Below are positions 1,216 through 10,394 of a stretch of 64,000 nucleotides of DNA, piece by piece. Source of the DNA: Maritimibacter sp. GTDB taxonomy: Bacteria > Pseudomonadota > Alphaproteobacteria > Rhodobacterales > Rhodobacteraceae. Each line of letters opens with the position of its first letter. Positions within the stretch are counted from its first letter, which is position 1. Location: positions 87,280-151,279 of the forward strand of contig CAXRHZ010000041.1 in NCBI GenBank assembly GCA_964230745.1. Reading direction: 5' to 3'. The notes beneath the pieces are model-generated. The model was not told the origin of the DNA and did no database searches. It saw only the letters and a program-made list of their open reading frames with translations. Position numbers and translations under genes: made by a program.

Positions 1216-1746
1216 ATGCATTTCAACAGAGTTCTGGCGCTTTTCGGGGCCGCCGCCGCGCTTTCCGGCTGCATGGGGACGGGCGGCACGACGGGCACGG
1301 CGCCGGACTGGACACTGAACTCCTACCTGCCGGACCCGACCGTGAACACGCAGATCCAAGGCAACGCGACGCAGGATTCTTCGTTCTCGACGCTATTCAG
1401 CGGCGTGCGGATCGGAGCGGGTGAAATGCCGCTCACGTGGAACCAGCAACTCGACAACGCCGCGCAGTCCTACGCCGGCTACCTCGTCGCCACGAACCAG
1501 TTTTCGCATACGGCGGGCAATTCCGACATTACCGACCGGGTGGCCGCCACCGGCTACCAGTACCGCAAGGTGGGCGAGAACCTTGGGCGCGGGCAGCAGT
1601 CGGAACAGGCGGTGATGACCGACTGGCAGAACTCCCCCGGTCACAACGCCAACCTGCTCGACCCGGATTTCGAGGAATTCGCGCTGGGCGTGTCGGGCAC
1701 CGGGCAGAACGTGACGTGGGTGCTGGTACTGGCCGATCCGCTCTGA
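1216..1746 (+). CDS. CAP/SCP (YkwD-like) domain lipoprotein
   Basis: Lipobox LSGC; FSHT, GENLG, WQNSPGHNANLL motifs. Confidence 0.85.
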   Translation: MHFNRVLALFGAAAALSGCMGTGGTTGTAPDWTLNSYLPDPTVNTQIQGNATQDSSFSTLFSGVRIGAGEMPLTWNQQLDNAAQSYAGYLVATNQFSHTAGNSDITDRVAATGYQYRKVGENLGRGQQSEQAVMTDWQNSPGHNANLLDPDFEEFALGVSGTGQNVTWVLVLADPL

Positions 1747-1780
1747 GCGGGGCCGCGCGACGCCCGTATCCACAAACGAA

Positions 1781-1804
1781 AACGGGGCGCCTAGGCGCCC
1801 CGTT
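1781..1804. terminator. bidirectional terminator-like palindrome between CAP gene and cspA
   Basis: Perfect 24-bp palindrome AACGGGGCGCCTAGGCGCCCCGTT between convergent genes. Confidence 0.7.
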
Positions 1805-1843
1805 CGTGTCTCGGCGGGTGCGGTCGCACCCGGATCGCGTGGC

Positions 1844-2050
1844 TCAGGCCAGCGCGAGGTTGGAGGCGGACTCGCGACCGTCACGACCTGCTTCGAGGTC
1901 GAAGGTCACGGCCTGGCCGTCCTTGAGGGTGGTGAGGCCGGCGCGCTCGACGGCGGAGATGTGGACGAACACGTCCTTCGATCCGCCTTCGGGCTCGATG
2001 AAGCCGAAGCCTTTAGTTGCGTTGAACCATTTCACGGTGCCATTCGCCAT
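1844..2050 (-). CDS. cspA: cold-shock protein
   Basis: [18 protein letters not shown]...DVFVHISA (RNP1/RNP2). Confidence 0.97.
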
Positions 2051-2389
2051 TGGAATGTTCCTTTCAGTTTGCCACCCGCGGAATTGCGGCGGCCCGGCAG
2101 CTTAAAGATCGAATGCTGGCCGAGTAGGAACAGGATCGCGAATTCAAGTATGCCACACCCACATGCGCTTTCCTGGCCCGAAACACAAGGGTTTTCCCAA
2201 CGGTAACGCAGAGATGAGCGGCCACGCGCCCGTGGCTCCGGGACCACATTTCGGCGGCTCTTTGCGAAAAAGTGAGTCTTTTGGCATTGTTATCACGGGC
2301 TTCCCCCCGGTTAACTGACTCGCGGAACACAGTTTTTCTCCGAGTCGCCTGGGGGCGGCAGGAAAACCGGGAGACGACACTTGATTGCT

Positions 2390-3100
2390 ATGCGTTTGAC
2401 GAAACTGGCGGCGGGCCTTGCGCTCGGCGTCCTGCTTGCCGCCTGTGCCGATGTGCCGACCGAGGAAACGGCGGTCACTTCGACCGGGGAGGTGCTGCCG
2501 GTCATCTCGTCCAAGACGCGCTCCATGTACCGGGAATTCGACGACGGGCAGTTCATCGTGCCCGCCGTGCCGCGCCAATACCTGTCGGAAGAGCGCGCGC
2601 GGCAGTACGTGCCGTACTACTCGCCCTATCCGGAGGGCACGATCGTCGTCGATCCCTATGACTACAAGCTCTACCTGATCTCCGGCCCGAACGAGGCGAT
2701 GCGCTATACCGTCGGCGTCGGCAAGGCGGGGCGGGGCCTGCGCGGCGAGGCGCGGGTGAACCATCAGAAGGACTGGCCCTACTGGACCCCGACCGCGAAC
2801 ATGCTGCGCCGCGAGCCGGAGAAATACGGCCCCGTGCGTGGTGGCATGGAGGGAGGGCTGGACAACCCGCTGGGCGCGCGGGCGCTCTACCTCTACCGCG
2901 GCGGGCGCGATACGCTCTACCGCATCCATGGCACGCCCTATCCCTGGACCGTGGGCGGCGAGGAATCCGGCGGCTGCATCCGCATGTTCCACCAGGACGC
3001 CATCCACCTCGCGGCCAATGTGGAGAACGGGACGCGGGTCATCATCCTAGGTGCGAGCGAGGCGGGGAAATACACGGTGCCCACGGGCGAAAGCGCCTGA
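2390..3100 (+). CDS. L,D-transpeptidase (YkuD family) lipoprotein
   Basis: Lipobox LAAC; LGARALYLY, YRIHGT...SGGCIRM catalytic His/Cys. Confidence 0.92.
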   Translation: MRLTKLAAGLALGVLLAACADVPTEETAVTSTGEVLPVISSKTRSMYREFDDGQFIVPAVPRQYLSEERARQYVPYYSPYPEGTIVVDPYDYKLYLISGPNEAMRYTVGVGKAGRGLRGEARVNHQKDWPYWTPTANMLRREPEKYGPVRGGMEGGLDNPLGARALYLYRGGRDTLYRIHGTPYPWTVGGEESGGCIRMFHQDAIHLAANVENGTRVIILGASEAGKYTVPTGESA

Positions 3101-3200
3101 CCCCGCGACCAGCGGTTCCCCGCCGCCGGACGCGACAACGTGAATGCGCGGGGGCGCCGGATCGGCTATCGTCTGCCCAAAACACCGAGGCAGGACAGTG

Positions 3201-4043
3201 ATGACCCCAACGACCCGGCGATCCGTCGCCCTTTCCCTCTTGCTCGCGGCGGCGGTGACGCTGGCCGCCTGCGGCTCTGGCCCCTCGCGGGGGCGGATGG
3301 CGACTCCCAAACCGCTGTTGCCGGAGAACTACCAGACCACGGGGATCCCCTCGATGTTCGGGGACACCGATCCCATCGACTGGACCGAGCATTCGCCCCG
3401 TCCCGATGCCTACCCGGTGCACGGGATCGACGCGTCGCGCTACCAGGGCGAGATCGACTTCGCCACGGCGCGCGCGAACGGGATCAACTTCGCCTGGCTG
3501 AAGGTGACCGAGGGGGGCGACCACCTCGACCCCGGCTACGAGATCAACGCGCCTCGCGCGCGGGCGGCGGGGATGCCGGTGGGCGGCTATCACTTCTACT
3601 ACTTCTGCCGCACGCCCGCCGAACAGGCGCGGTGGTTCATCAGGAACGTGCCGAAGGTCGCCGGGGACCTGCCGCCGATGCTGGACATGGAGTGGAACCA
3701 CCAGTCGCGGACCTGCAAGCGGCGTCCCGACGCCGAGACGGTGCGCGACGAGATCCGGCAATACGCCCAGATCGTCACGGCGCATTACGGCACGGCGCCG
3801 GTGATCTACGTCACCCCCGACTTCTACGCCGAGAACGAGCTTGGCCGGCTCGCGGGCTACGAGTTCTGGCTGCGCTCCGTCGCGGCGCATCCGTCGGAGC
3901 GGTATCCGGACGAACGCTGGACCTTCTGGCAATTCACCGGCACGGGCGTCGCGAAGGGCGTGAAGGGCAACGTGGACCTCAACGCCTTCGCGGGCAGCGT
4001 GGAGAGCTGGGTCGGCTGGCTGACGGCGCGCCGCCAGCGCTAG
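3201..4043 (+). CDS. GH25 lysozyme/muramidase lipoprotein
   Basis: Lipobox LAAC; GIDASRYQG, KVTEGGD, GGYHFYYFC, PPMLDMEW (DxE), WQFT. Confidence 0.92.
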   Translation: MTPTTRRSVALSLLLAAAVTLAACGSGPSRGRMATPKPLLPENYQTTGIPSMFGDTDPIDWTEHSPRPDAYPVHGIDASRYQGEIDFATARANGINFAWLKVTEGGDHLDPGYEINAPRARAAGMPVGGYHFYYFCRTPAEQARWFIRNVPKVAGDLPPMLDMEWNHQSRTCKRRPDAETVRDEIRQYAQIVTAHYGTAPVIYVTPDFYAENELGRLAGYEFWLRSVAAHPSERYPDERWTFWQFTGTGVAKGVKGNVDLNAFAGSVESWVGWLTARRQR

Positions 4044-4044
4044 G

Positions 4045-5070
4045 TCACGGCAGGCGGATCACCGGGGCGGGACCTAGCGGCACGGGGCCCAGGAAGGCGC
4101 GCCCGTCCTCGAACCGGAGCGTGGCGTCCAGCGTCTCGGGATCGCCCGACAGGCGGGCGAGCATTTCGCCCGCGCGGGTGATGGTGCCCACGAGCATCTC
4201 GGGCACCGCGCCCGCCGCCTGCGCGACGGCGATCATGTTGCGCCAGTTCTCGGCCTTCACGTCGATTTCGCCCTCGGCCACGCCGTTCTGTCCCACCACA
4301 AGAACGCCGGTCGCGTCGAGCGTCAGCGCACCCCAGTCGAGCGCGAGGCGCGTGAGCTCGATCTCGCGCGGCTGCGGGCGGGCGCGTTCGATGGCGAAGC
4401 GGTCCCACGGGTTGTCGAAGCGGATCGTCGCGGTGATGCGCGCCCGGTCGATCACCTCGGGGATCGCGCCCGCGTCGCGCGCACCGGAGAGGAGCGCGGG
4501 ATCGGGGCGGATGCCGCTCGCGTTCACGTCGAAATCGTAGACATGCCCCTGCCGGTCGGGCGTTTCGCGCATCGACACCTGCGCCTGGCTCAGCCCCGTC
4601 TCGCGCGTCGTGCCGTCGGCGGTCGTGGCGATGGTGGCGCCCTCGATCTCGATCACGCTGCGCCGGATGGGAAGCTCCACCGTGGGGGCGAAGCTCGCCG
4701 AGGCGCGGAAGACCTCGGCCTCGATCCGGTGGCTCGCGTCGCGGGTGGCGAAGACCTGTTCGCCGGGAAAGACCGCGATGACCTCGGTCGGGCTGTAGCT
4801 CAGCGACAGGTTCTGGAACGTGGGCGCGGACCAGGCGATGCCGGTTTCCGGGTCGGCGATGTTGAGGTCGGTGATGGTGGTGTCGAAGCGGCTCGGAAAG
4901 CCCGCGGTGTTGAGGCTGTCATACGCCGCCGTCCAGCCCTCTTCCCGCCGGTCCTCGAACCAGCCCGCGAGCACGCGCTCGGTCGCCTGCGCGCCGATGA
5001 ACCAGTATCCGCCCCATCCGAAGAAGATGAGGAGGATCAGGGCGATGATGATCTGGGGCGCCTTGCGCAT
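4045..5070 (-). CDS. DUF2125-like membrane-anchored periplasmic protein
   Basis: N-terminal TM then GFPSRF motif and C-terminal LGPVPLGPAP typical of DUF2125. Confidence 0.75.
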   Translation of the reverse strand: MRKAPQIIIALILLIFFGWGGYWFIGAQATERVLAGWFEDRREEGWTAAYDSLNTAGFPSRFDTTITDLNIADPETGIAWSAPTFQNLSLSYSPTEVIAVFPGEQVFATRDASHRIEAEVFRASASFAPTVELPIRRSVIEIEGATIATTADGTTRETGLSQAQVSMRETPDRQGHVYDFDVNASGIRPDPALLSGARDAGAIPEVIDRARITATIRFDNPWDRFAIERARPQPREIELTRLALDWGALTLDATGVLVVGQNGVAEGEIDVKAENWRNMIAVAQAAGAVPEMLVGTITRAGEMLARLSGDPETLDATLRFEDGRAFLGPVPLGPAPVIRLP

Positions 5071-5129
5071 CGTGGCCTCTCTGTTACCGTCCCCCCTTCT
5101 AGCCAGCGCGCGACAGGAGGGGAAGCGGG

Positions 5130-5663
5130 ATGGACAGCGACCTGTGGGTCTTCGGCTATGGCTCGCTCCTGTGGAACCAGGGGTTCCCGCATGTGGAGGC
5201 AGTGCAGGCGCGGCTGCACGGGTATCACCGCTCGTTCTGCATGCGTTCGATTCACCACCGGGGCACGGACGAGGTGCCGGGGCTGGTGCTCGCCCTCGAC
5301 GAGGCGCAGGGGGCCAGTTGTGCGGGCGTGGCCTACCGCGTTCATCCCGATCACCACGCGCCCACGATGGTGGCGCTGCGCGAACGCGAACTGATCTCGT
5401 CGGCCTATGTCGAGAAGACCCTACCCGTGTCGCTCGCCGATGGACGGGAGGTCACGGCGGTCTCATACGTGATCGACCCGGACCACGTGCAATACTGCCA
5501 CCTCGACCTCGAGGAGCAGGCCCGCATTATCGCGCGCGCCGTGGGCGGGCGCGGGCCGAACACCGAGTACCTCTACAACACCGCCCAGCACCTCACCGAC
5601 GAGGGGATCGAGGACCCGGACCTCACCTGGCTTGCTGCCGAAGTGCGCAGGATCACGGGATAA
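5130..5663 (+). CDS. chaC: gamma-glutamylcyclotransferase (ChaC family)
   Basis: LWVFGYGSLLW, HRGT..PGLVLAL, LRERE, GPNTEYL. Confidence 0.92.
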   Translation: MDSDLWVFGYGSLLWNQGFPHVEAVQARLHGYHRSFCMRSIHHRGTDEVPGLVLALDEAQGASCAGVAYRVHPDHHAPTMVALRERELISSAYVEKTLPVSLADGREVTAVSYVIDPDHVQYCHLDLEEQARIIARAVGGRGPNTEYLYNTAQHLTDEGIEDPDLTWLAAEVRRITG

Positions 5664-5743
5664 TCGTCCATTCGTTCCTTGTGAGCGGGGCGCGCAGCGA
5701 CTAACCTCCCGTTCAAATAATCATCCGGAAGGAGCCCGTCCGC

Positions 5744-6907
5744 ATGGACCAGCCGGATCTCGGGGCCGAGCCGAAATTCACACGACCCTTGCGTCAGATC
5801 CTGACGATGTTCATCGTTCTGGGACTGGTGGGTGTCGGCGTGTTCTTCGCGTTGCCGCAGGTGCTCCCGGTCTTTCTCGCCAATCTCTATCTCAACGCTT
5901 TCATCGGGTTCGTTTTCCTCGTCGGCCTGATCGCCTGTTTCTGGCAGGTGGTGCAGATCGCGAGTTCGGTGGGGTGGCTCAAGCGCTTCGCCTCGGGCGA
6001 GCATGACGGGCGCGGGGCGCCCCGGCTTCTGGCTCCGCTGGCCGCGCTTCTGCGCACGCGGCGCGACCGGATGCAGATCGGCTCGACCTCGGCGCGTTCG
6101 ATCCTCGACAGTGTTGCGACCCGCATCGACGAAGAACGTGACATCACGCGTTATATCACCAACCTTCTGATCTTCCTCGGCCTTCTGGGGACGTTCTTCG
6201 GTCTCGCCACGACCGTTCCGGCGGTGGTGGAGACGATACGCTCGCTCGCCCCGGGCGAGGGCGAGGGGGGCGTCGCGGTGTTCGACCGCCTCATGACCGG
6301 GCTCGAGGAACAGCTGGGCGGCATGGGCACGGCGTTCTCCTCCTCGCTCCTGGGGCTTGCCGGGTCGCTGGTCGTGGGCCTCCTCGAGCTCTTCGCGAGC
6401 CACGGACAGAACCGGTTCTACCGCGAGTTGGAAGAATGGCTCTCGTCGATCACCAAGGTGGGCTTTTCACCCGGGGAAGAGAACCAGGGCGAGGCGGGGA
6501 TGGCCGCCTACCTCACCTACATGGCCGAACAGATCGAGGCGCTGCGCCAGGCTGTCGCCACCGCCGAGGACGGGCGCGCCACCACGGACGCGCGGCTCTG
6601 GCAACTCGTCGACGGGGTCGAGCGGCTCGCGTCGAGCCTGCATGAACAGCCCGACCTCGGCCCCGAATTCGCGCGGATGGCCGAAGGGCAGGAACGCATG
6701 ATCGCCGCCATCGAGGGGCAGGGGAGCGCCGCCGCGCCCGCCGCTGCCAACGACGATGCCGAAGCCCGCATGCGCCTGCGCTCCATCGACGTGCAGCTTT
6801 TGCGGATCCTCGAAGAGATGGCCGCGGGTCGGCAGGAAACGATGTCGGAGCTGCGCTCAGACATCAACGCGCTCACCAAGGCGATCCGCGCGCTCGGGGG
6901 TGAGTGA
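5744..6907 (+). CDS. MotA/TolQ/ExbB-like proton-channel subunit with C-terminal helical tail
   Basis: TM motifs LIFLGLLGTFFGL and GMGTAFSSSLLGLAGSL; stop overlaps next start (TGATG). Confidence 0.8.
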   Translation: MDQPDLGAEPKFTRPLRQILTMFIVLGLVGVGVFFALPQVLPVFLANLYLNAFIGFVFLVGLIACFWQVVQIASSVGWLKRFASGEHDGRGAPRLLAPLAALLRTRRDRMQIGSTSARSILDSVATRIDEERDITRYITNLLIFLGLLGTFFGLATTVPAVVETIRSLAPGEGEGGVAVFDRLMTGLEEQLGGMGTAFSSSLLGLAGSLVVGLLELFASHGQNRFYRELEEWLSSITKVGFSPGEENQGEAGMAAYLTYMAEQIEALRQAVATAEDGRATTDARLWQLVDGVERLASSLHEQPDLGPEFARMAEGQERMIAAIEGQGSAAAPAAANDDAEARMRLRSIDVQLLRILEEMAAGRQETMSELRSDINALTKAIRALGGE

Positions 6908-8781
6908 TGGCGCTCGCGCGACGGTCTGTCCGCAACGTCTCCGGCACGATCTGGCCGGGGTTCGTGGATGCGATGACCGCGCTCCTCCTCGTCCTGATGT
7001 TCGTGCTCACCATCTTCATGGTCGTGCAATACGTGCTGCGCGAGCAGATCTCGGGGCAGGCGACGGAACTCGACAACCTGTCGGCGCAGGTGGCGGGGCT
7101 GGCCGATGCGCTGGGCCTGGAACGCCAGCGGACGGCGCAGCTGGGCGAGGAGGTGGGGAGCCTCACCGCCACGCTGGGCGACATGCGCACCGAGAACGCG
7201 GCGCAACAGGCGCGGATCGGTGAATTGGTCGAACAGACCGAAGCGCAGGCAGAGCGCATCGCGGGATACCAGGGCGAAATCGCGAGTTTCGAGGAACAGG
7301 TGGCGAGCCTGATCGCGCAGCGTGACAGCGTGATCGCCGAACGTGACACGGTGATCGCCGAGCGCGACGCGGTGATCGACGAACGTGACGAGGTGACGGA
7401 GGAACGGGACACGGCGCAACAGCGTGCGGTTGAACTGCGCGCGAGCGTCGAGGAACTGGAGGCCGCCCAGAGCCGCCTGATCTCGGAACAGGAGGCGCTG
7501 CAACTGGCGCTCGCCCGCGCCCGCGACGAGATCGACGCCGAGGCCGAGGCCGCGCGCCTTGCCGCCGCGCGCCGCGAGGCGGTCGAGGCCATGCTGGCCG
7601 AGATGCGTGCCGAGGCCGCGCAGGCGGACGCGGCCCTGGCCGAGGCCGAGACGGAGATTTCACAGCGCACAGCCGCGCTGGAAGAGGCGCAGGGGACCAT
7701 AGAAGAGCAGCAGGCCGACCTCGAGGCCGCGCGGGCCGCCGCCCAGCAGGCGCAGGAGGAACTGTCCGACGAGGAAGCCGCGCGCCTGGCGGATGCCGCG
7801 GCGCTTCAACGCCTTCGCGAGCGGCTTGCGGACGCGGACGAAGAGATCACCGCCATGACGCTCGCGCTCGAGGAGCAACGGCGGCAGGCGGAGGAAACGC
7901 TCACGCTGCTCGCCGCCGCGCGCACCGCGCAGGCGGATATCGAGGCGGCGCGGGATGAAGCGTTGAGCGAAGCCGACCGTCAGGCCGCGCTTCTCGCAAC
8001 CGCCCGATCGGAACTCGCCGACGAGGAGGCGCAGAGCGCGGAGGCGCAGCGGCGCATCGCGCTCCTGAACGAACAGACCGCGGCGCTGCGCCAGCAGCTC
8101 GGAAACCTCGAAAACGTGCTCGACGAAGCGCAGCAGCGCGAGGAGGAGGCGCAGGTGCAGATCGAAGCGCTGGGATCGCGGCTCAACACCGCGCTCGCGC
8201 AGGTGGCTGCCGAGCAGCGGGCGCTGGCGGAAGAGCAGGCCGCGCTGGCCGAAGAACAGCGGCGCCGTGCCGAGCTCGAGGCCGCTGAGGCCGAACGTGC
8301 GCGCGAAGAGGCCCGCAATCTCGAAGGGTATCGCTCGGAATTCTTCGGGCGGCTCCGGCAGGTTCTGGGCGACCGCGAGGGTATTCGCATCGACGGCGAC
8401 CGGTTCGTCTTCTCGTCCGAAGTGCTGTTCCCGGTGGGCGCGGCGGACCTGTCGCCCGCTGGGCGTGCGCAGATCACGCGGGTGGCGAACACGCTCATGG
8501 AGGTCGCATCCGAAATCCCCGCCGAAATCGACTGGATCCTGCGGGTGGACGGTCATACCGACAGCCAGCCGATCCGGGGCAATGCGGAATATGCCGACAA
8601 CTGGGAACTGAGCCAGGCGCGCGCGCTGTCCGTCGTGCGTTACATGCAGGACGAGCTGGGCTTTCCGCCCTTCCGTCTGGTCGCGGCCGGGTTCGGGGAA
8701 TTCCAGCCGCTGGTGCAGGGCGACAGCGACGAGGCGTTGGCGGCGAACCGGCGCATCGAGCTCAAACTGACCGAGAAGTGA
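6907..8781 (+). CDS. MotB-like protein: N-terminal TM, long coiled coil, C-terminal OmpA peptidoglycan-binding domain
   Basis: WPGFVDAMTALLLVLMFVLTIF (conserved Asp); A/E/Q/R-rich heptads; VDGHTD, NWELSQARA, NRRIEL. Confidence 0.85.
   Translation: MALARRSVRNVSGTIWPGFVDAMTALLLVLMFVLTIFMVVQYVLREQISGQATELDNLSAQVAGLADALGLERQRTAQLGEEVGSLTATLGDMRTENAAQQARIGELVEQTEAQAERIAGYQGEIASFEEQVASLIAQRDSVIAERDTVIAERDAVIDERDEVTEERDTAQQRAVELRASVEELEAAQSRLISEQEALQLALARARDEIDAEAEAARLAAARREAVEAMLAEMRAEAAQADAALAEAETEISQRTAALEEAQGTIEEQQADLEAARAAAQQAQEELSDEEAARLADAAALQRLRERLADADEEITAMTLALEEQRRQAEETLTLLAAARTAQADIEAARDEALSEADRQAALLATARSELADEEAQSAEAQRRIALLNEQTAALRQQLGNLENVLDEAQQREEEAQVQIEALGSRLNTALAQVAAEQRALAEEQAALAEEQRRRAELEAAEAERAREEARNLEGYRSEFFGRLRQVLGDREGIRIDGDRFVFSSEVLFPVGAADLSPAGRAQITRVANTLMEVASEIPAEIDWILRVDGHTDSQPIRGNAEYADNWELSQARALSVVRYMQDELGFPPFRLVAAGFGEFQPLVQGDSDEALAANRRIELKLTEK
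7321..7404 (+). repeat. in-frame 21-bp (7-aa) tandem repeat x4 inside the coiled coil
   Basis: CGTGACAGCGTGATCGCCGAA / CGTGACACGGTGATCGCCGAG / CGCGACGCGGTGATCGACGAA / CGTGACGAGGTGACGGAGGAA = RDSVIAE RDTVIAE RDAVIDE RDEVTEE. Confidence 0.85.
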
Positions 8782-8784
8782 GGA

Positions 8785-9765
8785 TCAGGGGGCCACGGTG
8801 AGGGTGGTCTCTCGTGCGTCGATCTCGGCCCCGTCGCGCATCAGGCGCACGCTGATCTCGTAATCGCCCACGGGCCAGCCATTGTCGGGGCGCCGCTTGC
8901 CCGCCGCCCGGAAGAACAGCACCTGCCTGCCTTCGATCTCCTGCGCGGCCGAGACGAGTTCCGACCCGTCAGGCCGCGTGATCGCGATGTCGAGCGTGTC
9001 GCCGGGCCGCGCGCCGTAGGCGAAGCCCCAGCCGACGAGGGCGGGCGCGTCCGGGGTGAGGCCGTTCACGCCCGCCGATCCCGCCTTGATCGCGTCGTAG
9101 TCGGGCAGACCCGCGCTCGCCCCAATGGTGAGGAGGCCGCCGGGACGGTAGGCCGGGCTGGCGCTCCACAGGTCGTCCTCCGGCCCGTCGTCCTGGCCGC
9201 ATTCCGTGATCTCGTCGGTGTTGAACGGATCGACCACGCGCCCGTCCCGGCGGACCGAGATGTGCAGATGCGGGAACTGGGTGCGGCCGGAATAGCCGAC
9301 CTCGCCCAGTGCCGCGCCCATCGCGACACGCTGGCCGGACTGCACCGTGACGGTTCCCTCCTTGAGGTGGCAATACTGCGTCTCCCACCCGCCGCCGTGG
9401 TCGAGCACCACGCCGTTTCCGCATTCGCGGCCCGAAAGCGTGTCGGGCGGCGTGTCGTCGGCCCCGAGGTCCGGCATTCCGTCGCGCACCCCGCGCACGA
9501 TGCCGGGCGCGGCGGCCACCACCGCAACGCCCGCCTCCATCGCGGCGAAGGAGGTGAGCGCGAAATCCGTGCCCTTGTGCCCGTCGTAGGACATCGGACC
9601 GCAGGTGAAATCCGCGGCGCCCGTGGACGGGTCGGCGTCGGTGTATTGAAGGATGAAGCAGTCCTCGCCCAGCGTGCAGTCGATCGGCTGGTTCAGGATT
9701 GGATCGCGGGCGAGGGCGGGCGTGGCCGCGAGGGCGACGGCGGCGAGGGGCAGGACAAGGCGCAT
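8785..9765 (-). CDS. M23 family metallopeptidase, secreted
   Basis: Signal peptide; HKGTDF (HxxxD), YCHLK, FPHLH (HxH). Confidence 0.9.
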   Translation of the reverse strand: MRLVLPLAAVALAATPALARDPILNQPIDCTLGEDCFILQYTDADPSTGAADFTCGPMSYDGHKGTDFALTSFAAMEAGVAVVAAAPGIVRGVRDGMPDLGADDTPPDTLSGRECGNGVVLDHGGGWETQYCHLKEGTVTVQSGQRVAMGAALGEVGYSGRTQFPHLHISVRRDGRVVDPFNTDEITECGQDDGPEDDLWSASPAYRPGGLLTIGASAGLPDYDAIKAGSAGVNGLTPDAPALVGWGFAYGARPGDTLDIAITRPDGSELVSAAQEIEGRQVLFFRAAGKRRPDNGWPVGDYEISVRLMRDGAEIDARETTLTVAP

Positions 9766-9797
9766 GGCCGCACTCTAGGCGCGCGGGGCGGGCCGGC

Positions 9798-10394
9798 TCA
9801 AGCGGTGGGTTTCATGGCCCAGTCGAGCGCGTCTTCCAGCCGGTCATCGCCCCAGAAAAGCTCATCTCCCACGGCGAATGTGGGCGAGCCGAAGACGCCC
9901 AATGCCTGCGCCTGCCCGGTTTCGGCGGCGAGGGCGGCTTCCGCGTCGGGGCTCTGCGCGCGGGCCAGAGCGTCCTTCGGATCCTGCCCGGCAGTCTCCA
10001 GCGCAAGCGAGAGGTTCGGGTCCTCGCCCGCCGGCTGCCCGTCCTCGAACCAGAGCCGGTAGGCCTCGCGCGTGTAGGCTTCGCCCCAACCCTCGGACAT
10101 GCCGAGCAACGCGACTTGGTTGGCCAGCACGAGGCCGGGGAGGGGGTAGGGCGCGGGCAGGCGTGGCGAGAGGCCGTAGCGCGGCGCGCGCCGCTCGATG
10201 TCGCGCCACATGTACGCGGCCTTCACCGGCTTGTCCTTGAACGGCACGTTGTTCTGCTCGACCATGATGTGACGCACGTTGAACGGGCGCCAGCGGAACA
10301 CGGCGCCCGTCTCGCGGGCCACGTCGCCGAGCCGCATGACCGTCAGGTAGCTGTAGGTCGAGCCTATGGAATACCAGAAATCGATTTGCTTCAT
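9798..10394 (-). CDS. 2-hydroxychromene-2-carboxylate isomerase / GST-kappa (DsbA-like) family protein
   Basis: IDFWYSIGSTYSYL, GVFGSPTF.VGDELFWGDDRL. Confidence 0.88.
   Translation of the reverse strand: MKQIDFWYSIGSTYSYLTVMRLGDVARETGAVFRWRPFNVRHIMVEQNNVPFKDKPVKAAYMWRDIERRAPRYGLSPRLPAPYPLPGLVLANQVALLGMSEGWGEAYTREAYRLWFEDGQPAGEDPNLSLALETAGQDPKDALARAQSPDAEAALAAETGQAQALGVFGSPTFAVGDELFWGDDRLEDALDWAMKPTA

What the first reader, a model, noticed from the sequence alone, without database searches (positions are those of the whole stretch)
5744..8781. Orphan MotAB/ExbBD/ZorAB-like stator with a roughly 430-residue periplasmic coiled coil
Seen: translationally coupled genes (TGATG). The A subunit has the channel helices GLLGTFFGL and GMGTAFSSSLLGL plus an approximately 150-aa helical C-terminal tail. 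The B subunit has the conserved TM Asp (WPGFVDAMT), about 430 aa of heptad-rich sequence (about 7040-8340) and an OmpA domain. Known: this 5:2 rotary family drives flagella (MotAB), TonB/Tol (ExbBD, TolQR) and Zorya defense (ZorAB). No flagellar, tonB/tolA or zorC/D/E gene is in this window. Inference: at about 0.15 nm per residue the coil would be about 65 nm if straight, longer than a typical periplasm, so it must fold back, lie laterally or act as a long strut. That suggests a PMF-driven machine with an unassigned output.
Basis: partly seen in the sequence, partly recalled or inferred. Interest (0 to 1): 0.62.

Follow-up and report, generated by a model that had tools for sequence, protein, structure and literature searches.

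The report
Conserved wall-anchored ion motor, giant stalk
Two overlapping genes of a marine Maritimibacter-like bacterium encode a non-flagellar, Zorya/Tol/Mot-type proton-channel pair; its wall-binding subunit carries a coiled-coil rod about 64 nm long, it belongs to a core-genome family found across Alphaproteobacteria, and no cellular job is established for it.

Summary
A (5744-6907, 387 aa) and B overlap as TGATG. B most likely starts at ATG 6907 (624 aa), not at the GTG at 6904.

- **A subunit:** the AlphaFold2 model's best PDB matches are all ExbB, TolQ, ZorA and MotA. By sequence the A family is closest to ZorA: 63 of 63 members hit a PADLOC ZorA1 model, against 21 of 63 for Pfam MotA_ExbB.
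- **B subunit:** it has a MotB-type TM with a near-invariant Asp21, a proline-free coil of about 434 aa, and a MotS/PomB-like OmpA domain with its conserved wall-binding-domain residues intact.
- **Not unique:** B passes NCBIfam equivalog NF006542 (PRK09039.1-1, 706 bits). The pair sits in conserved synteny in 37 Rhodobacterales loci. Orthologous pairs occur in Sinorhizobium meliloti and in distant alphaproteobacterial MAGs. Those MAGs usually carry a third, Pro-rich OmpA-like gene that is absent here.
- **Not flagellar, Tol/Ton or Zorya defence:** defining features of each failed when tested.
- **New here:** the stalk varies from 44 to 88 nm (far longer in one genome) in exact 7-residue steps within four discrete zones. 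That argues against a fixed-length ruler.

Function is unproven. The best guess is a wall-anchored 5:2 motor whose A ring and cytoplasmic tail turn. The only experimental lead is Komagataeibacter hansenii "motAB": overexpression elongated the cells and the proteins were polar.

The parts
5744..6907 (+). Gene A: 387-aa MotA/ExbB/TolQ/ZorA-type channel subunit
   Evidence: Translation. AF2 model has mean pLDDT 82, above 90 in the TM core. All top 50 Foldseek PDB hits are ExbB, TolQ, ZorA or MotA. PADLOC ZorA1 PDLC00597 gives E = 1.8e-12. Pfam MotA_ExbB scores only 13 bits, below its cut-off of 22.9.
5804..5953 (+). A residues 21-70: N-terminal hydrophobic helix pair (TM1-TM2)
   Evidence: Helices H16-35, H37-46 and H48-83 in the AF2 model. 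The segments are hydrophobic in the translation. Topology is inferred.
6152..6223 (+). A residues 137-160: channel helix with LIFLGLLGTFFGL; Thr150 and Gly146/149/153 invariant
   Evidence: Invariant columns in the 63-member alignment. The same FLGLLGTFWGL motif aligns to TolQ YIGLFGTVWGI.
6326..6397 (+). A residues 195-218: second channel helix GMGTAFSSSLLGLAGSLVVG
   Evidence: F198, G204 and L205 are invariant. It lies within helix H176-241.
6407..6904 (+). A residues 222-387: cytoplasmic helical tail (three helices: 251-301, 306-329, 335-384)
   Evidence: AF2 secondary structure, pLDDT 53-84. Relatives down to 35% identity align out to about residue 385. Motifs such as LRxID...ELRxEIRxLxRTI are conserved. 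Total size matches the 378-aa type II ZorA of PDB 8VVI.
6905..6909 (+). TGATG stop/start overlap coupling A and B
   Evidence: Sequence. A metatranscriptome contig spans 6260-7097 at 100% identity.
6907..8781 (+). Gene B: 624-aa MotB-like, peptidoglycan-binding subunit (PRK09039 family)
   Evidence: NCBIfam NF006542 scores 706 bits against a cut-off of 388. The start at ATG 6907 is inferred from relatives.
6952..7038 (+). B residues 16-44: MotB-type TM helix WPGFVDAMTALLLVLMFVL with Asp21
   Evidence: W16, P17, G18, F19, V20 and D21 are conserved in at least 90% of 54 homologues. The spacing from the WPGF motif to the QYVLRE motif is invariant at 25 aa.
7039..8367 (+). B residues 45-487: periplasmic coiled-coil stalk (434 aa between landmarks, about 64 nm if straight)
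   Evidence: Heptad register is held over most of its length. AF2 helices are 19-185, 197-345 and 355-487. Length variation is in heptad steps.
7306..7414 (+). 21-bp tandem array (RDxVIAE heptads); the window carries one heptad more than its closest relatives
   Evidence: Tandem Repeats Finder gives period 21, 4-4.5 copies. There is a 7-aa gap at this position in L001, L003 and L004 relative to the window.
7462..7494 (+). B residues 186-196: first predicted break or hinge in the stalk
   Evidence: AF2 shows a non-helical stretch with pLDDT below 50. It is followed by the strongly conserved EALQLALA...ARLAAARRE island.
7942..7968 (+). B residues 346-354: second predicted break or hinge
   Evidence: AF2 shows a non-helical stretch with pLDDT below 50.
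8368..8781 (+). B residues 488-624: stator-type OmpA-like peptidoglycan-binding domain
   Evidence: Pfam OmpA E = 1.2e-13. Best Foldseek hits are MotS, the DVU_2228 MotB-like protein and PomB-C (E about 1e-10, TM about 0.7 normalised to the target). H550-T551-D552, R572-A573 and N614-R615-R616 are invariant.

Best explanation
Genes A and B encode the Rhodobacterales form of a core-genome, non-flagellar ion-motor pair that is conserved across Alphaproteobacteria. NCBI names B 'peptidoglycan-binding protein', family PRK09039, and names A 'biopolymer transporter ExbB'.

**Shown**
- A has the ExbB/TolQ/ZorA/MotA fold, the conserved channel Thr and Gly residues, and a cytoplasmic helical tail of about 165 aa.
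- B has a MotB-type TM Asp, a stalk of about 434 residues with a heptad register, and a MotB/PomB-like OmpA domain whose conserved wall-binding-domain residues are intact.
- The two genes are translationally coupled.
- The pair is vertically inherited in fixed synteny.

**Inferred mechanism**
- The proteins assemble as A5B2, by analogy with every solved relative.
- The B dimer is fixed to peptidoglycan through its OmpA domains, so proton flow through the Asp/Thr site turns the A pentamer around B. This is the logic of MotAB and ZorAB, not of ExbBD/TolQR.
- The mechanical output would then be the bundled cytoplasmic A tails, acting on a partner that is still unknown.
- The B stalk is a parallel two-stranded coiled coil. 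At 64 nm it cannot stand perpendicular in the periplasm, so it must lie at a shallow angle or bend at its two predicted hinges. It would act as a long, torsionally stiff leash rather than a distance ruler.

**Physiological role**
This is speculative: envelope or cell-division housekeeping, possibly at the poles.
For: **Family identity**
- B scores 706 bits on NF006542 (cut-off 388).
- S. meliloti B scores 692 bits on the sister equivalog NF006544. S. meliloti A is 45% identical to the window's A, and its B is 44% identical to the window's B over the aligned parts.

**Fold**
- A matches ExbB 5zfp, TolQ, ZorA 8qyd/8vvn and MotA 6ykm.
- The C-terminal domain of B matches MotS, PomB and H. pylori MotB.

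**Sequence affinity to ZorA**
- 63 of 63 family members hit PADLOC ZorA1, and 50-57 of 63 hit each ZorA3 model. Only 21 of 63 hit Pfam MotA_ExbB.
- A is 387 aa, close to the 378-aa type II ZorA of 8VVI, whose five C-termini bundle into a tail.

**Functional residues**
- Conserved residues are A Thr150, Gly146/149/153; B Asp21; B D552, R572, N614-R616.

**Core-genome status**
- The block DUF2125-chaC-A-B-(M23)-clpA recurs in 37 Rhodobacterales loci.
- GC content is the same as the flanks.
- There are no phage hits and no defence genes beside it.

**Coupling and expression**
- The TGATG overlap is confirmed.
- Metatranscriptome contigs, 100% identical, span chaC-A and the A-B junction.

**Stalk as a continuous coil of non-critical length**
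- All indels among five close relatives are 7, 14 or 28 aa.
- 12 of 13 and 16 of 19 distinct lengths of the two main variable zones fall in one residue class mod 7 (P about 1e-8 and 1e-10).
- Total length ranges from 297 to 595 aa among 140 homologues.
Against: - No multimer model, structure or genetics exists for this pair, so 5:2 stoichiometry and rotation rest on analogy only.
- Sequence similarity of A to any solved protein is weak. The profile search gave TolQ E = 0.77 and ZorA E = 0.002, and most of that ZorA alignment lies in the coiled-coil tail. Foldseek E-values are only about 1e-2.
- No cytoplasmic partner for the A tail is encoded nearby.
- In other Alphaproteobacteria a third, Pro-rich OmpA-like gene precedes A. 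That hints the output could instead be periplasmic.
- The AF2 monomer breaks the stalk into three helices of 133-167 aa, so a folded stalk is not excluded.
- The metatranscriptome contigs may include contaminating DNA; one runs on into the convergent M23 gene.
Confidence: 0.55

Rival explanations
1. Tol/Ton-like logic: the moving, force-transmitting part is B, not A. PMF-driven changes in the A5B2 core would be carried along the long B coiled coil to the wall (pulling, twisting or reaching), so the output is periplasmic. In the three-gene lineages it might act together with the Pro-rich OmpA-like protein C. The role would be in envelope constriction or cohesion.
For: - The ancestral module includes a TonB/TolA-style Pro-rich periplasmic protein with an OmpA-like end.
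- The stalk contains strongly conserved islands (residues 196-233, 286-337 and 363-470). These are unusual for a passive spacer.
- Overexpression of the K. hansenii pair elongated or filamented the cells (PMC6315621, PMC6570709).
Against: - An OmpA-type wall anchor on B is the hallmark of systems in which B is the fixed part (MotB, PomB, ZorB).
- ExbD and TolR lack such a domain.
- A stalk whose length differs by tens of nanometres between close relatives is hard to reconcile with a calibrated force transducer.
- Protein C is not adjacent in Rhodobacterales.
Confidence: 0.17
2. A static tether or gated channel. The pair would be mainly a structural link from inner membrane to peptidoglycan, or a PMF/envelope-state sensor. 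The channel would only gate or regulate assembly, as the MotB plug does, and would drive no sustained rotation.
For: - The long leash has an unconstrained length.
- No output partner gene is present.
- Alphaproteobacteria lack Braun's lipoprotein (established knowledge), so extra wall tethers are plausible.
Against: - The proton-binding Asp, the channel Thr and the glycine-rich channel helices are conserved in at least 90% of members, many being invariant, down to 32% identity. That level of conservation is costly to explain without ion flow.
- The A tail is conserved over its full length.
Confidence: 0.15
3. A Zorya-like anti-phage system whose effector genes lie elsewhere or are unrecognised.
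For: - The best sequence matches of A, and of all 63 relatives, are PADLOC ZorA models.
- B hits ZorB3 and ZorB1 models.
- A has the size of a type II ZorA.
Against: - No ZorC/D/E/F/G hit and no other credible defence hit in ten neighbouring genes; the only two matches are weak, partial hits on the Lrp regulator and the methyltransferase.
- The synteny is fixed and the distribution fits vertical inheritance from Rhodobacterales to Sinorhizobium.
- GC content matches the host.
- It is absent from the phage records, and the only 'plasmid' hits are 3.5-4.6-Mb records.
- The B hits to ZorB lie mostly in the generic OmpA domain.
Confidence: 0.03
4. A flagellar or gliding stator (a MotAB/PomAB/AglRQS equivalent).
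For: - Some sources name B 'chemotaxis protein MotB'.
- In one relative the pair lies 1 kb from a flagellar gene cluster (L041).
- K. hansenii overexpressors spread faster on soft agar (PMC6570709).
Against: - B scores 24-90 bits on flagellar MotB/MotS/MotD models whose cut-offs are 264-312 bits.
- B has no MotB_plug domain.
- L041 also carries a canonical MotB with a plug domain, and S. meliloti has its own motABC (established knowledge).
- K. hansenii has no flagellar genes (PMC6315621).
- No flagellar genes lie beside the pair here.
Confidence: 0.03

Closest known systems
ZorA/ZorB core of Zorya anti-phage systems (ZorA5B2; PDB 8QYD, 8VVN type I, 8VVI type II)
   Same: - ZorA is the best sequence match for A: all 63 family members hit PADLOC ZorA1.
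- The A fold matches ZorA.
- In both, the A subunit carries a C-terminal cytoplasmic helical tail, and A (387 aa) is about the size of the 378-aa type II ZorA.
- In both, the B subunit has a TM Asp and an OmpA-type wall anchor.
- The implied logic is the same: a fixed B and a turning A.
   Different: - No ZorC/D/E/F/G effectors are present.
- The pair is in the core genome and vertically inherited, not in a defence island.
- The long coiled coil is on the periplasmic side, in B (about 434 aa). ZorB has none, and type I ZorA carries its long coil in the cytoplasm.
- Many relatives carry a third, Pro-rich OmpA-like gene.
[quoted passage not shown]
   Same: - The window's B passes NF006542 (706 bits against a cut-off of 388).
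- S. meliloti B passes NF006544.
- A is 45% identical and B 44% identical over the aligned parts.
- Gene order and tight coupling are the same.
   Different: - These families are annotation names only, with no function attached.
- Short forms of about 340-350 aa have a stalk of about 150 residues (about 22 nm). The Rhodobacterales form has expanded the middle of the stalk to 300-600 aa or more.
- The Rhodobacterales form lies in a different neighbourhood (chaC/clpA rather than efp-suhB).
Komagataeibacter hansenii ATCC 23769 'MotA/MotB' (Jacek et al., PMC6315621 and PMC6570709)
   Same: - It is a non-flagellated alphaproteobacterium with an adjacent pair of 348 and 321 aa.
- The published primers encode MotA starting (V/M)TRPTTY, identical to the first seven residues of family member P0290. 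They encode MotB starting MARRSR and ending EFRLTDR*, which matches the family termini MALxRRS... and ...IELKLTEK*.
   Different: - Membership was checked only through these terminal peptides, not through full sequences.
- The data are from overexpression only: cells were elongated, colonies spread faster, and GFP fusions were polar.
- Its stalk is the short form.
Flagellar stators MotAB/PomAB/MotPS
   Same: - B has the W-x-x-F/Y-x-D-x-M-T type of TM motif.
- B has a stator-type, extended OmpA-like domain; its best structural matches are MotS and PomB.
- A appears to have a four-helix membrane topology.
   Different: - There is no MotB plug.
- A lacks a recognisable FliG-interacting domain and falls below the Pfam MotA_ExbB threshold.
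- The pair coexists with canonical stators in relatives.
- It occurs in a non-flagellated bacterium, if the K. hansenii pair belongs to this family.
ExbBD and TolQR
   Same: - These are the top structural matches for the A core (5zfp, 9ddm, 8odt).
- They share the GLxGTxxG channel motif.
   Different: - ExbD and TolR have no OmpA domain and are not wall-fixed.
- No TonB or TolA partner is present.
- ExbB and TolQ have no long C-terminal tail.

Membership tests
5:2 ion-driven motor superfamily (MotAB/ExbBD/TolQR/ZorAB/GldLM) | The A subunit has the ExbB/TolQ/MotA/ZorA membrane fold | tested here: met
   The AF2 model has pLDDT 82. All top 50 Foldseek PDB hits are ExbB, TolQ, ZorA or MotA, with TM 0.39-0.65 normalised to the target.
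5:2 ion-driven motor superfamily (MotAB/ExbBD/TolQR/ZorAB/GldLM) | A conserved acidic residue in the single TM helix of B, and conserved Thr/Gly residues in the channel helices of A | tested here: met
   B Asp21 is conserved in at least 90% of 54 homologues. A Thr150 and Gly146/149/153 are invariant in 63 members.
5:2 ion-driven motor superfamily (MotAB/ExbBD/TolQR/ZorAB/GldLM) | A5B2 stoichiometry and rotation | not testable with these tools
   Only monomer AlphaFold2 was available, and there are no experimental data.
NCBIfam PRK09039.1-1 (NF006542) peptidoglycan-binding protein | Whole-protein score above the curated equivalog cut-off | tested here: met
   706.4 bits against a cut-off of 388.
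Flagellar MotAB/PomAB | B reaches the curated MotB/MotS/MotD model cut-offs and has a MotB_plug domain | tested here: not met
   The best flagellar model (MotD, NF006541) scores 89.7 bits against a cut-off of 283. There is no PF13677 hit.
Flagellar MotAB/PomAB | It is the organism's flagellar stator, lying in flagellar gene context and being the only stator | tested here: not met
   The genes flanking the pair are not flagellar, and the window holds no second stator-like A or B gene. Relative L041 carries a separate MotB_plug+OmpA gene.
ExbBD / TolQR | The B subunit has an ExbD/TolR-type periplasmic domain and no OmpA wall anchor, and a TonB/TolA partner gene is present | tested here: not met
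   B has an OmpA domain. No partner gene is present in the conserved neighbourhood.
Zorya (types I-III) | ZorA-like and ZorB-like core proteins | tested here: met
   PADLOC ZorA1 gives E = 1.8e-12 for A and hits 63 of 63 family members. ZorB3 gives E = 5e-21 for B, mostly over the OmpA domain.
Zorya (types I-III) | Adjacent effector genes (ZorC+ZorD, ZorE, or ZorF+ZorG) | tested here: not met
   Ten neighbouring genes gave no Zor hits in PADLOC. The neighbours are chaC, DUF2125, M23, an HCCA isomerase, clpA and others.
Zorya (types I-III) | Patchy, mobile, defence-island distribution | tested here: not met
   The same synteny holds in 37 Rhodobacterales loci. Orthologues lie on the S. meliloti 3.7-Mb replicon and in distant MAGs next to efp-suhB. 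There are no phage hits.
Three-gene alphaproteobacterial module (C: Pro-rich OmpA-like protein; A; B) | A C gene lies directly upstream of A | tested here: not met
   C is present in L038, L039, L040, L042 and L044. tblastn found no C homologue in the 64-kb window or in the 37 Rhodobacterales loci.

The most novel reading that the evidence does not exclude
This pair and its relatives would form a third housekeeping class of PMF-driven 5:2 envelope motor, alongside Tol and Ton. The class would be specific to Alphaproteobacteria and would be the closest cellular kin of the Zorya core. In the Rhodobacterales form, the wall-anchored B dimer has grown into a periplasmic rod of 44-88 nm (up to about 170 nm) that changes length in heptad steps. 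The rod would lie along the inner face of the wall and hold the B dimer against rotation at a distance, while the A ring and its short cytoplasmic tail bundle turn. This would couple the state of the wall or of the PMF to a cytoplasmic process such as division or polar organisation.
Probability: 0.25. Interest if true: 0.8.

Novelty: new variant of a known kind. Interest (0 to 1): 0.6.

Why it matters
Ion-driven 5:2 motors are known to power flagella, gliding and type 9 secretion, Ton uptake, Tol-Pal and Zorya defence. This family is a further branch. It is vertically inherited in a major bacterial class, has thousands of members and curated annotation models, and has essentially no experimental work behind it.

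It combines a ZorA-like A subunit with a MotB-like wall anchor on a rod far longer than the periplasm is wide. It could therefore show how torque or tension is handled over tens of nanometres in the envelope. It could also show what Zorya evolved from.

Orthologues exist in S. meliloti, and the family is widespread among roseobacters, so tractable laboratory strains should be within reach. The question is directly testable by deletion, an Asp-to-Asn mutation, stalk-length swaps and cryo-ET.

Tried and rejected
- **Single-sequence PDB search:** the A core found nothing relevant. Even profiles give only marginal TolQ and ZorA hits, so fold comparison was needed.
- **Reaching distant relatives:** the profile search of the 5.8-billion-protein set returned only Rhodobacterales. 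The single genome-contig scan did the same. Distant relatives were reached instead through the 50%-representative search plus contig look-ups. A 3.7-Mb S. meliloti record filed as a plasmid also helped.
- **Whole-genome searches:** I could not do whole-genome phylogenetic profiling, look for gene C elsewhere in this genome, or check the genome for flagellar or Tol genes.
- **Folded-back stalk:** the AF2 monomer shows three helices. Across 55 distinct architectures, helix 3 stays at 117-141 aa while helices 1 and 2 range over 82-253 and 89-275 aa and are only loosely correlated (Spearman 0.47, not corrected for phylogeny). A fixed three-helix bundle is therefore not supported, although hinges are not excluded.
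- **Periplasmic ruler:** rejected, because stalk length differs by 7-49 aa within one genus and about two-fold within the order.
- **Functional link to the wall-enzyme neighbours:** the CAP, L,D-transpeptidase and GH25 genes are present only in the closest relative and absent from L002-L004. The M23 gene is convergent and only partly conserved. This does not support a dedicated module.
- **Promoter and terminator scan:** nothing found.
- **Heptad polymorphism in metagenomes:** contigs from four DNA runs showed no 21-bp indels. Contigs hide rare variants, so this is uninformative.
- **Literature:** seven searches found no functional paper other than the Komagataeibacter overexpression work.

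Full report
**What is there**

The window is uniformly 65-70% G+C, with no anomaly at the locus. ORF A (5744-6907, 387 aa) ends in a TGA whose last base is the first base of an ATG at 6907 (sequence GAGTGATGGCG). The ORF finder starts B at the GTG at 6904. Every relative begins MAL(A/S/T)RRS, so B is most likely 6907-8781, 624 aa.

The closest named homologue of A (94% identical) is from a Maritimibacter strain. NCBI names the A homologues 'biopolymer transporter ExbB' and the B homologues 'peptidoglycan-binding protein' or 'chemotaxis protein MotB'.

**Subunit A**

- Pfam MotA_ExbB scores only 13 bits against a cut-off of 22.9, and no NCBIfam model reaches its cut-off.
- PADLOC ZorA1 model PDLC00597 hits at E = 1.8e-12.
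- Across 63 family members down to 32% identity, all 63 hit that ZorA1 model and 50-57 hit each ZorA3 model. Only 21 hit Pfam MotA_ExbB at E <= 1e-3.
- An AF2 model built on that alignment has mean pLDDT 82, above 90 in the membrane core.
- All top 50 Foldseek matches in the PDB are ExbB, TolQ, ZorA or MotA.
- The helices LIFLGLLGTFFGL and GMGTAFSSSLLGL contain invariant Gly146/149/153, Thr150, Phe198 and Gly204. The first aligns with the TolQ motif YIGLFGTVWGI.
- After the last membrane helix come three cytoplasmic helices (251-301, 306-329, 335-384). These are conserved in length and in motifs down to 35% identity.
- At 387 aa, A is the size of the 378-aa type II ZorA of Sulfuricurvum kujiense (PDB 8VVI). 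Its five C-termini bundle into a cytoplasmic tail that is needed for function (PMC11890865).

**Subunit B**

- B scores 706 bits on NCBIfam equivalog NF006542 (PRK09039.1-1, cut-off 388). Four sister equivalogs of about 343-350 aa also hit its two ends.
- The N-terminus has the MotB-type TM motif WPGFVDAMT. Asp21 is conserved in at least 90% of 54 homologues.
- Residues 45-487 are helical. They hold one heptad register over most of their length. I saw no proline in that stretch.
- The C-terminal domain is OmpA-like (Pfam E = 1.2e-13). Its best structural matches are the stator anchors MotS, DVU_2228 and PomB-C (E about 1e-10).
- The conserved HTD...RA...NRR residues of the OmpA-like domain are invariant.
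- There is no MotB_plug domain. Flagellar MotB/MotS/MotD models score 24-90 bits against cut-offs of 264-312.

**Distribution and context**

- A has more than 8000 close homologues and spans 2175 clusters at 50% identity at E <= 1e-3.
- In 37 Rhodobacterales loci the block DUF2125(-)-chaC-A-B-(M23-)-clpA(-)-gloB recurs.
- The CAP, L,D-transpeptidase and GH25 genes upstream in this window occur only in the nearest relative, so they are not part of a module.
- Distant relatives (32-41% identity) sit after efp and/or suhB. They carry a third gene, C, directly upstream of A. C is a secreted, Pro-rich protein with an OmpA-like end. Their B is 340-459 aa.
- One intermediate lineage has efp-suhB-A-B(428 aa)-VIT1-clpA without C, which bridges the two contexts.
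- No C homologue is present in this window or in the 37 Rhodobacterales loci.
- A 3.7-Mb Sinorhizobium meliloti record gives a named orthologous pair in the order suhB, A (368 aa), B (342 aa), then a convergent ABC transporter and rpmE. Its B scores 692 bits on NF006544. Identities to the window's proteins are 45% for A and 44% for B over the aligned parts.
- In locus L041 the pair coexists with a canonical MotB_plug+OmpA gene next to flagellar genes.
- There are no phage hits. The ten neighbouring genes gave no Zorya or other credible defence hit; the only two matches are weak, partial hits on the Lrp regulator and the methyltransferase. Profiles of the A core and of the two ends of B found no second stator-like gene or OmpA-like domain in the 64-kb window.
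- The pair is therefore a vertically inherited housekeeping module. It is not a defence island and not a flagellar stator.

**The stalk**

Aligning B with short forms shows three things:
- About 90 N-terminal residues are shared.
- The last roughly 90 coil residues plus the OmpA domain are shared.
- The middle is a lineage-specific expansion.

Among five Maritimibacter-clade proteins (624, 617, 617, 631 and 582 aa), every indel is exactly 7, 14 or 28 residues. The window carries one extra heptad (VIAERDA) inside a 21-bp tandem array at 7306-7414.

Across 140 Rhodobacterales homologues there are 55 distinct architectures:
- Four inter-landmark spacers are essentially invariant: 25, 29 and 36 aa, and one of 33 aa that is 30 aa in a few architectures.
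- Four zones vary.
- The two main zones take 13 and 19 distinct lengths. Of these, 12 and 16 fall in a single class mod 7 (P about 6e-9 and 1e-10).
- The landmark-to-landmark coil ranges from 297 to 595 aa, which is 44-88 nm. The window has 434 aa, or 64 nm.
- One genome (L034) encodes a 1302-aa B.

This fits a continuous coiled coil that grows and shrinks by slippage of heptad-coding repeats. It is poorly compatible with a calibrated ruler.

The AF2 monomer places low-confidence breaks at residues 186-196 and 346-354. Helix 3 is nearly constant (117-141 aa), whereas helices 1 and 2 range over 82-253 and 89-275 aa. A fixed three-helix fold-back is therefore not supported. Monomer AF2 cannot settle this, and hinges remain possible.

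At 64 nm the rod cannot stand perpendicular in a periplasm a few tens of nanometres wide (established knowledge). It must lie obliquely, lie laterally, or bend.

**Expression**

A marine metatranscriptome (run X8) holds contigs 100% identical to the window. They span chaC into A (5110-6082) and the A-B junction (6260-7097), and cover most of B. This is consistent with co-transcription. Contaminating DNA cannot be excluded, because one contig continues into the convergent M23 gene.

**How it probably works**

Shown: the fold, the channel residues, the wall-anchor residues, the gene coupling and the conservation.

Inferred:
- The proteins form an A5B2 assembly, as every solved relative does.
- B carries a stator-type wall anchor, so the logic should be that of MotAB and ZorAB: B is fixed, and proton flow turns the A ring.
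- The conserved cytoplasmic A tails, probably bundled, would then be the output.
- The stalk would act as a long, torsionally stiff leash.

I put about 0.55 on this. The main rivals are a Tol-like reading in which B and the stalk transmit force in the periplasm (0.17), and a largely static tether or sensor (0.15). Zorya-type defence and flagellar or gliding roles are each about 0.03.

**Literature**

Seven full-text searches found no functional study of PRK09039-type pairs. A 2025 survey of MotAB relatives separates flagellar from 'generic' transporters, and in the passages I searched it does not mention coiled coils or Alphaproteobacteria (PMC12505986).

Overexpression gave elongated or filamentous cells and faster colony spreading, and GFP fusions were polar (PMC6315621, PMC6570709).

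I tested membership only partly:
- The published primers encode MotA starting (V/M)TRPTTY, identical to the first seven residues of family member P0290.
- They encode MotB starting MARRSR and ending EFRLTDR*, which matches the family termini MALxRRS... and ...RRIELKLTEK*.

**Verdict**

This is a stator-like pair with an unassigned output and an over-long periplasmic coil. It is also a member of a large, annotated but unstudied alphaproteobacterial family, not a one-off orphan.
- It is the Rhodobacterales variant of that family: no adjacent C gene, and a hyper-extended stalk that varies in heptad steps.
- Novelty: a new variant of a known kind. Interest: 0.6.

Noticed in passing
window 6904-6909: The mechanical ORF call starts B at GTG 6904. 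Relatives show the start is the ATG at 6907, which overlaps A's TGA stop (TGATG). With that start, B is 624 aa and falls into the family's dominant length class (1 mod 7).
   Followed up: yes
window 1216-4043: The CAP/SCP, L,D-transpeptidase (YkuD) and GH25 muramidase genes lie between lrp and DUF2125. They are present in the closest relative (L001) and absent from L002-L004, where lrp sits about 0.5 kb from DUF2125. This looks like a recent accessory insertion of about 3 kb of wall-acting genes, not part of the motor module.
   Followed up: partly
L034:9270 onward: A Paracoccaceae MAG encodes a 1302-aa B homologue. Its stalk would exceed 1100 residues, about 170 nm if straight.
   Followed up: no
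L038:6335-7960; L040:7111-8004; L042:4483-5232; L044:4964-5929: In distant Alphaproteobacteria a third gene precedes A. It has a signal peptide, a long Pro-rich or PAETAA-type repeat spacer reminiscent of TonB/TolA, and a C-terminal OmpA-like domain. It is missing next to the pair in all Rhodobacterales loci, in L043, and (from the 315-nt gap) in S. meliloti.
   Followed up: partly
L045 (CP090106.1) and L038: A convergent ABC_membrane+ABC_tran exporter gene overlapping the 3' end of B, followed by rpmE, is conserved between S. meliloti and a very distant low-GC relative. CP090106.1 is labelled 'plasmid pSymB' but is 3.7 Mb and carries ribosomal-protein and purine genes, so it is probably the chromosome mislabelled.
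   Followed up: no
L041:1-5211: In one relative the A-B pair lies about 1 kb downstream of a flagellar cluster (flgK, flgI and rod genes) that includes a canonical MotB_plug+OmpA gene. The proximity is probably coincidental, but it is the only flagellar adjacency I saw.
   Followed up: no
window 7492-7605, 7762-7917 and 7993-8316 (B residues 196-233, 286-337 and 363-470): The stalk is not uniformly variable. Strongly conserved islands, such as EALQLALAxARDEIDA...ARLAAARRE and ELTAMTLALEEQRKxAEETLTLLAAA, alternate with the heptad-variable zones. This suggests partner-binding or hinge functions.
   Followed up: partly
window 4900-9900: A marine metatranscriptome (run X8) contains contigs 100% identical to chaC-A, the A-B junction, B and the M23 gene. 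The same strain's DNA is present in more than ten marine metagenome runs.
   Followed up: partly
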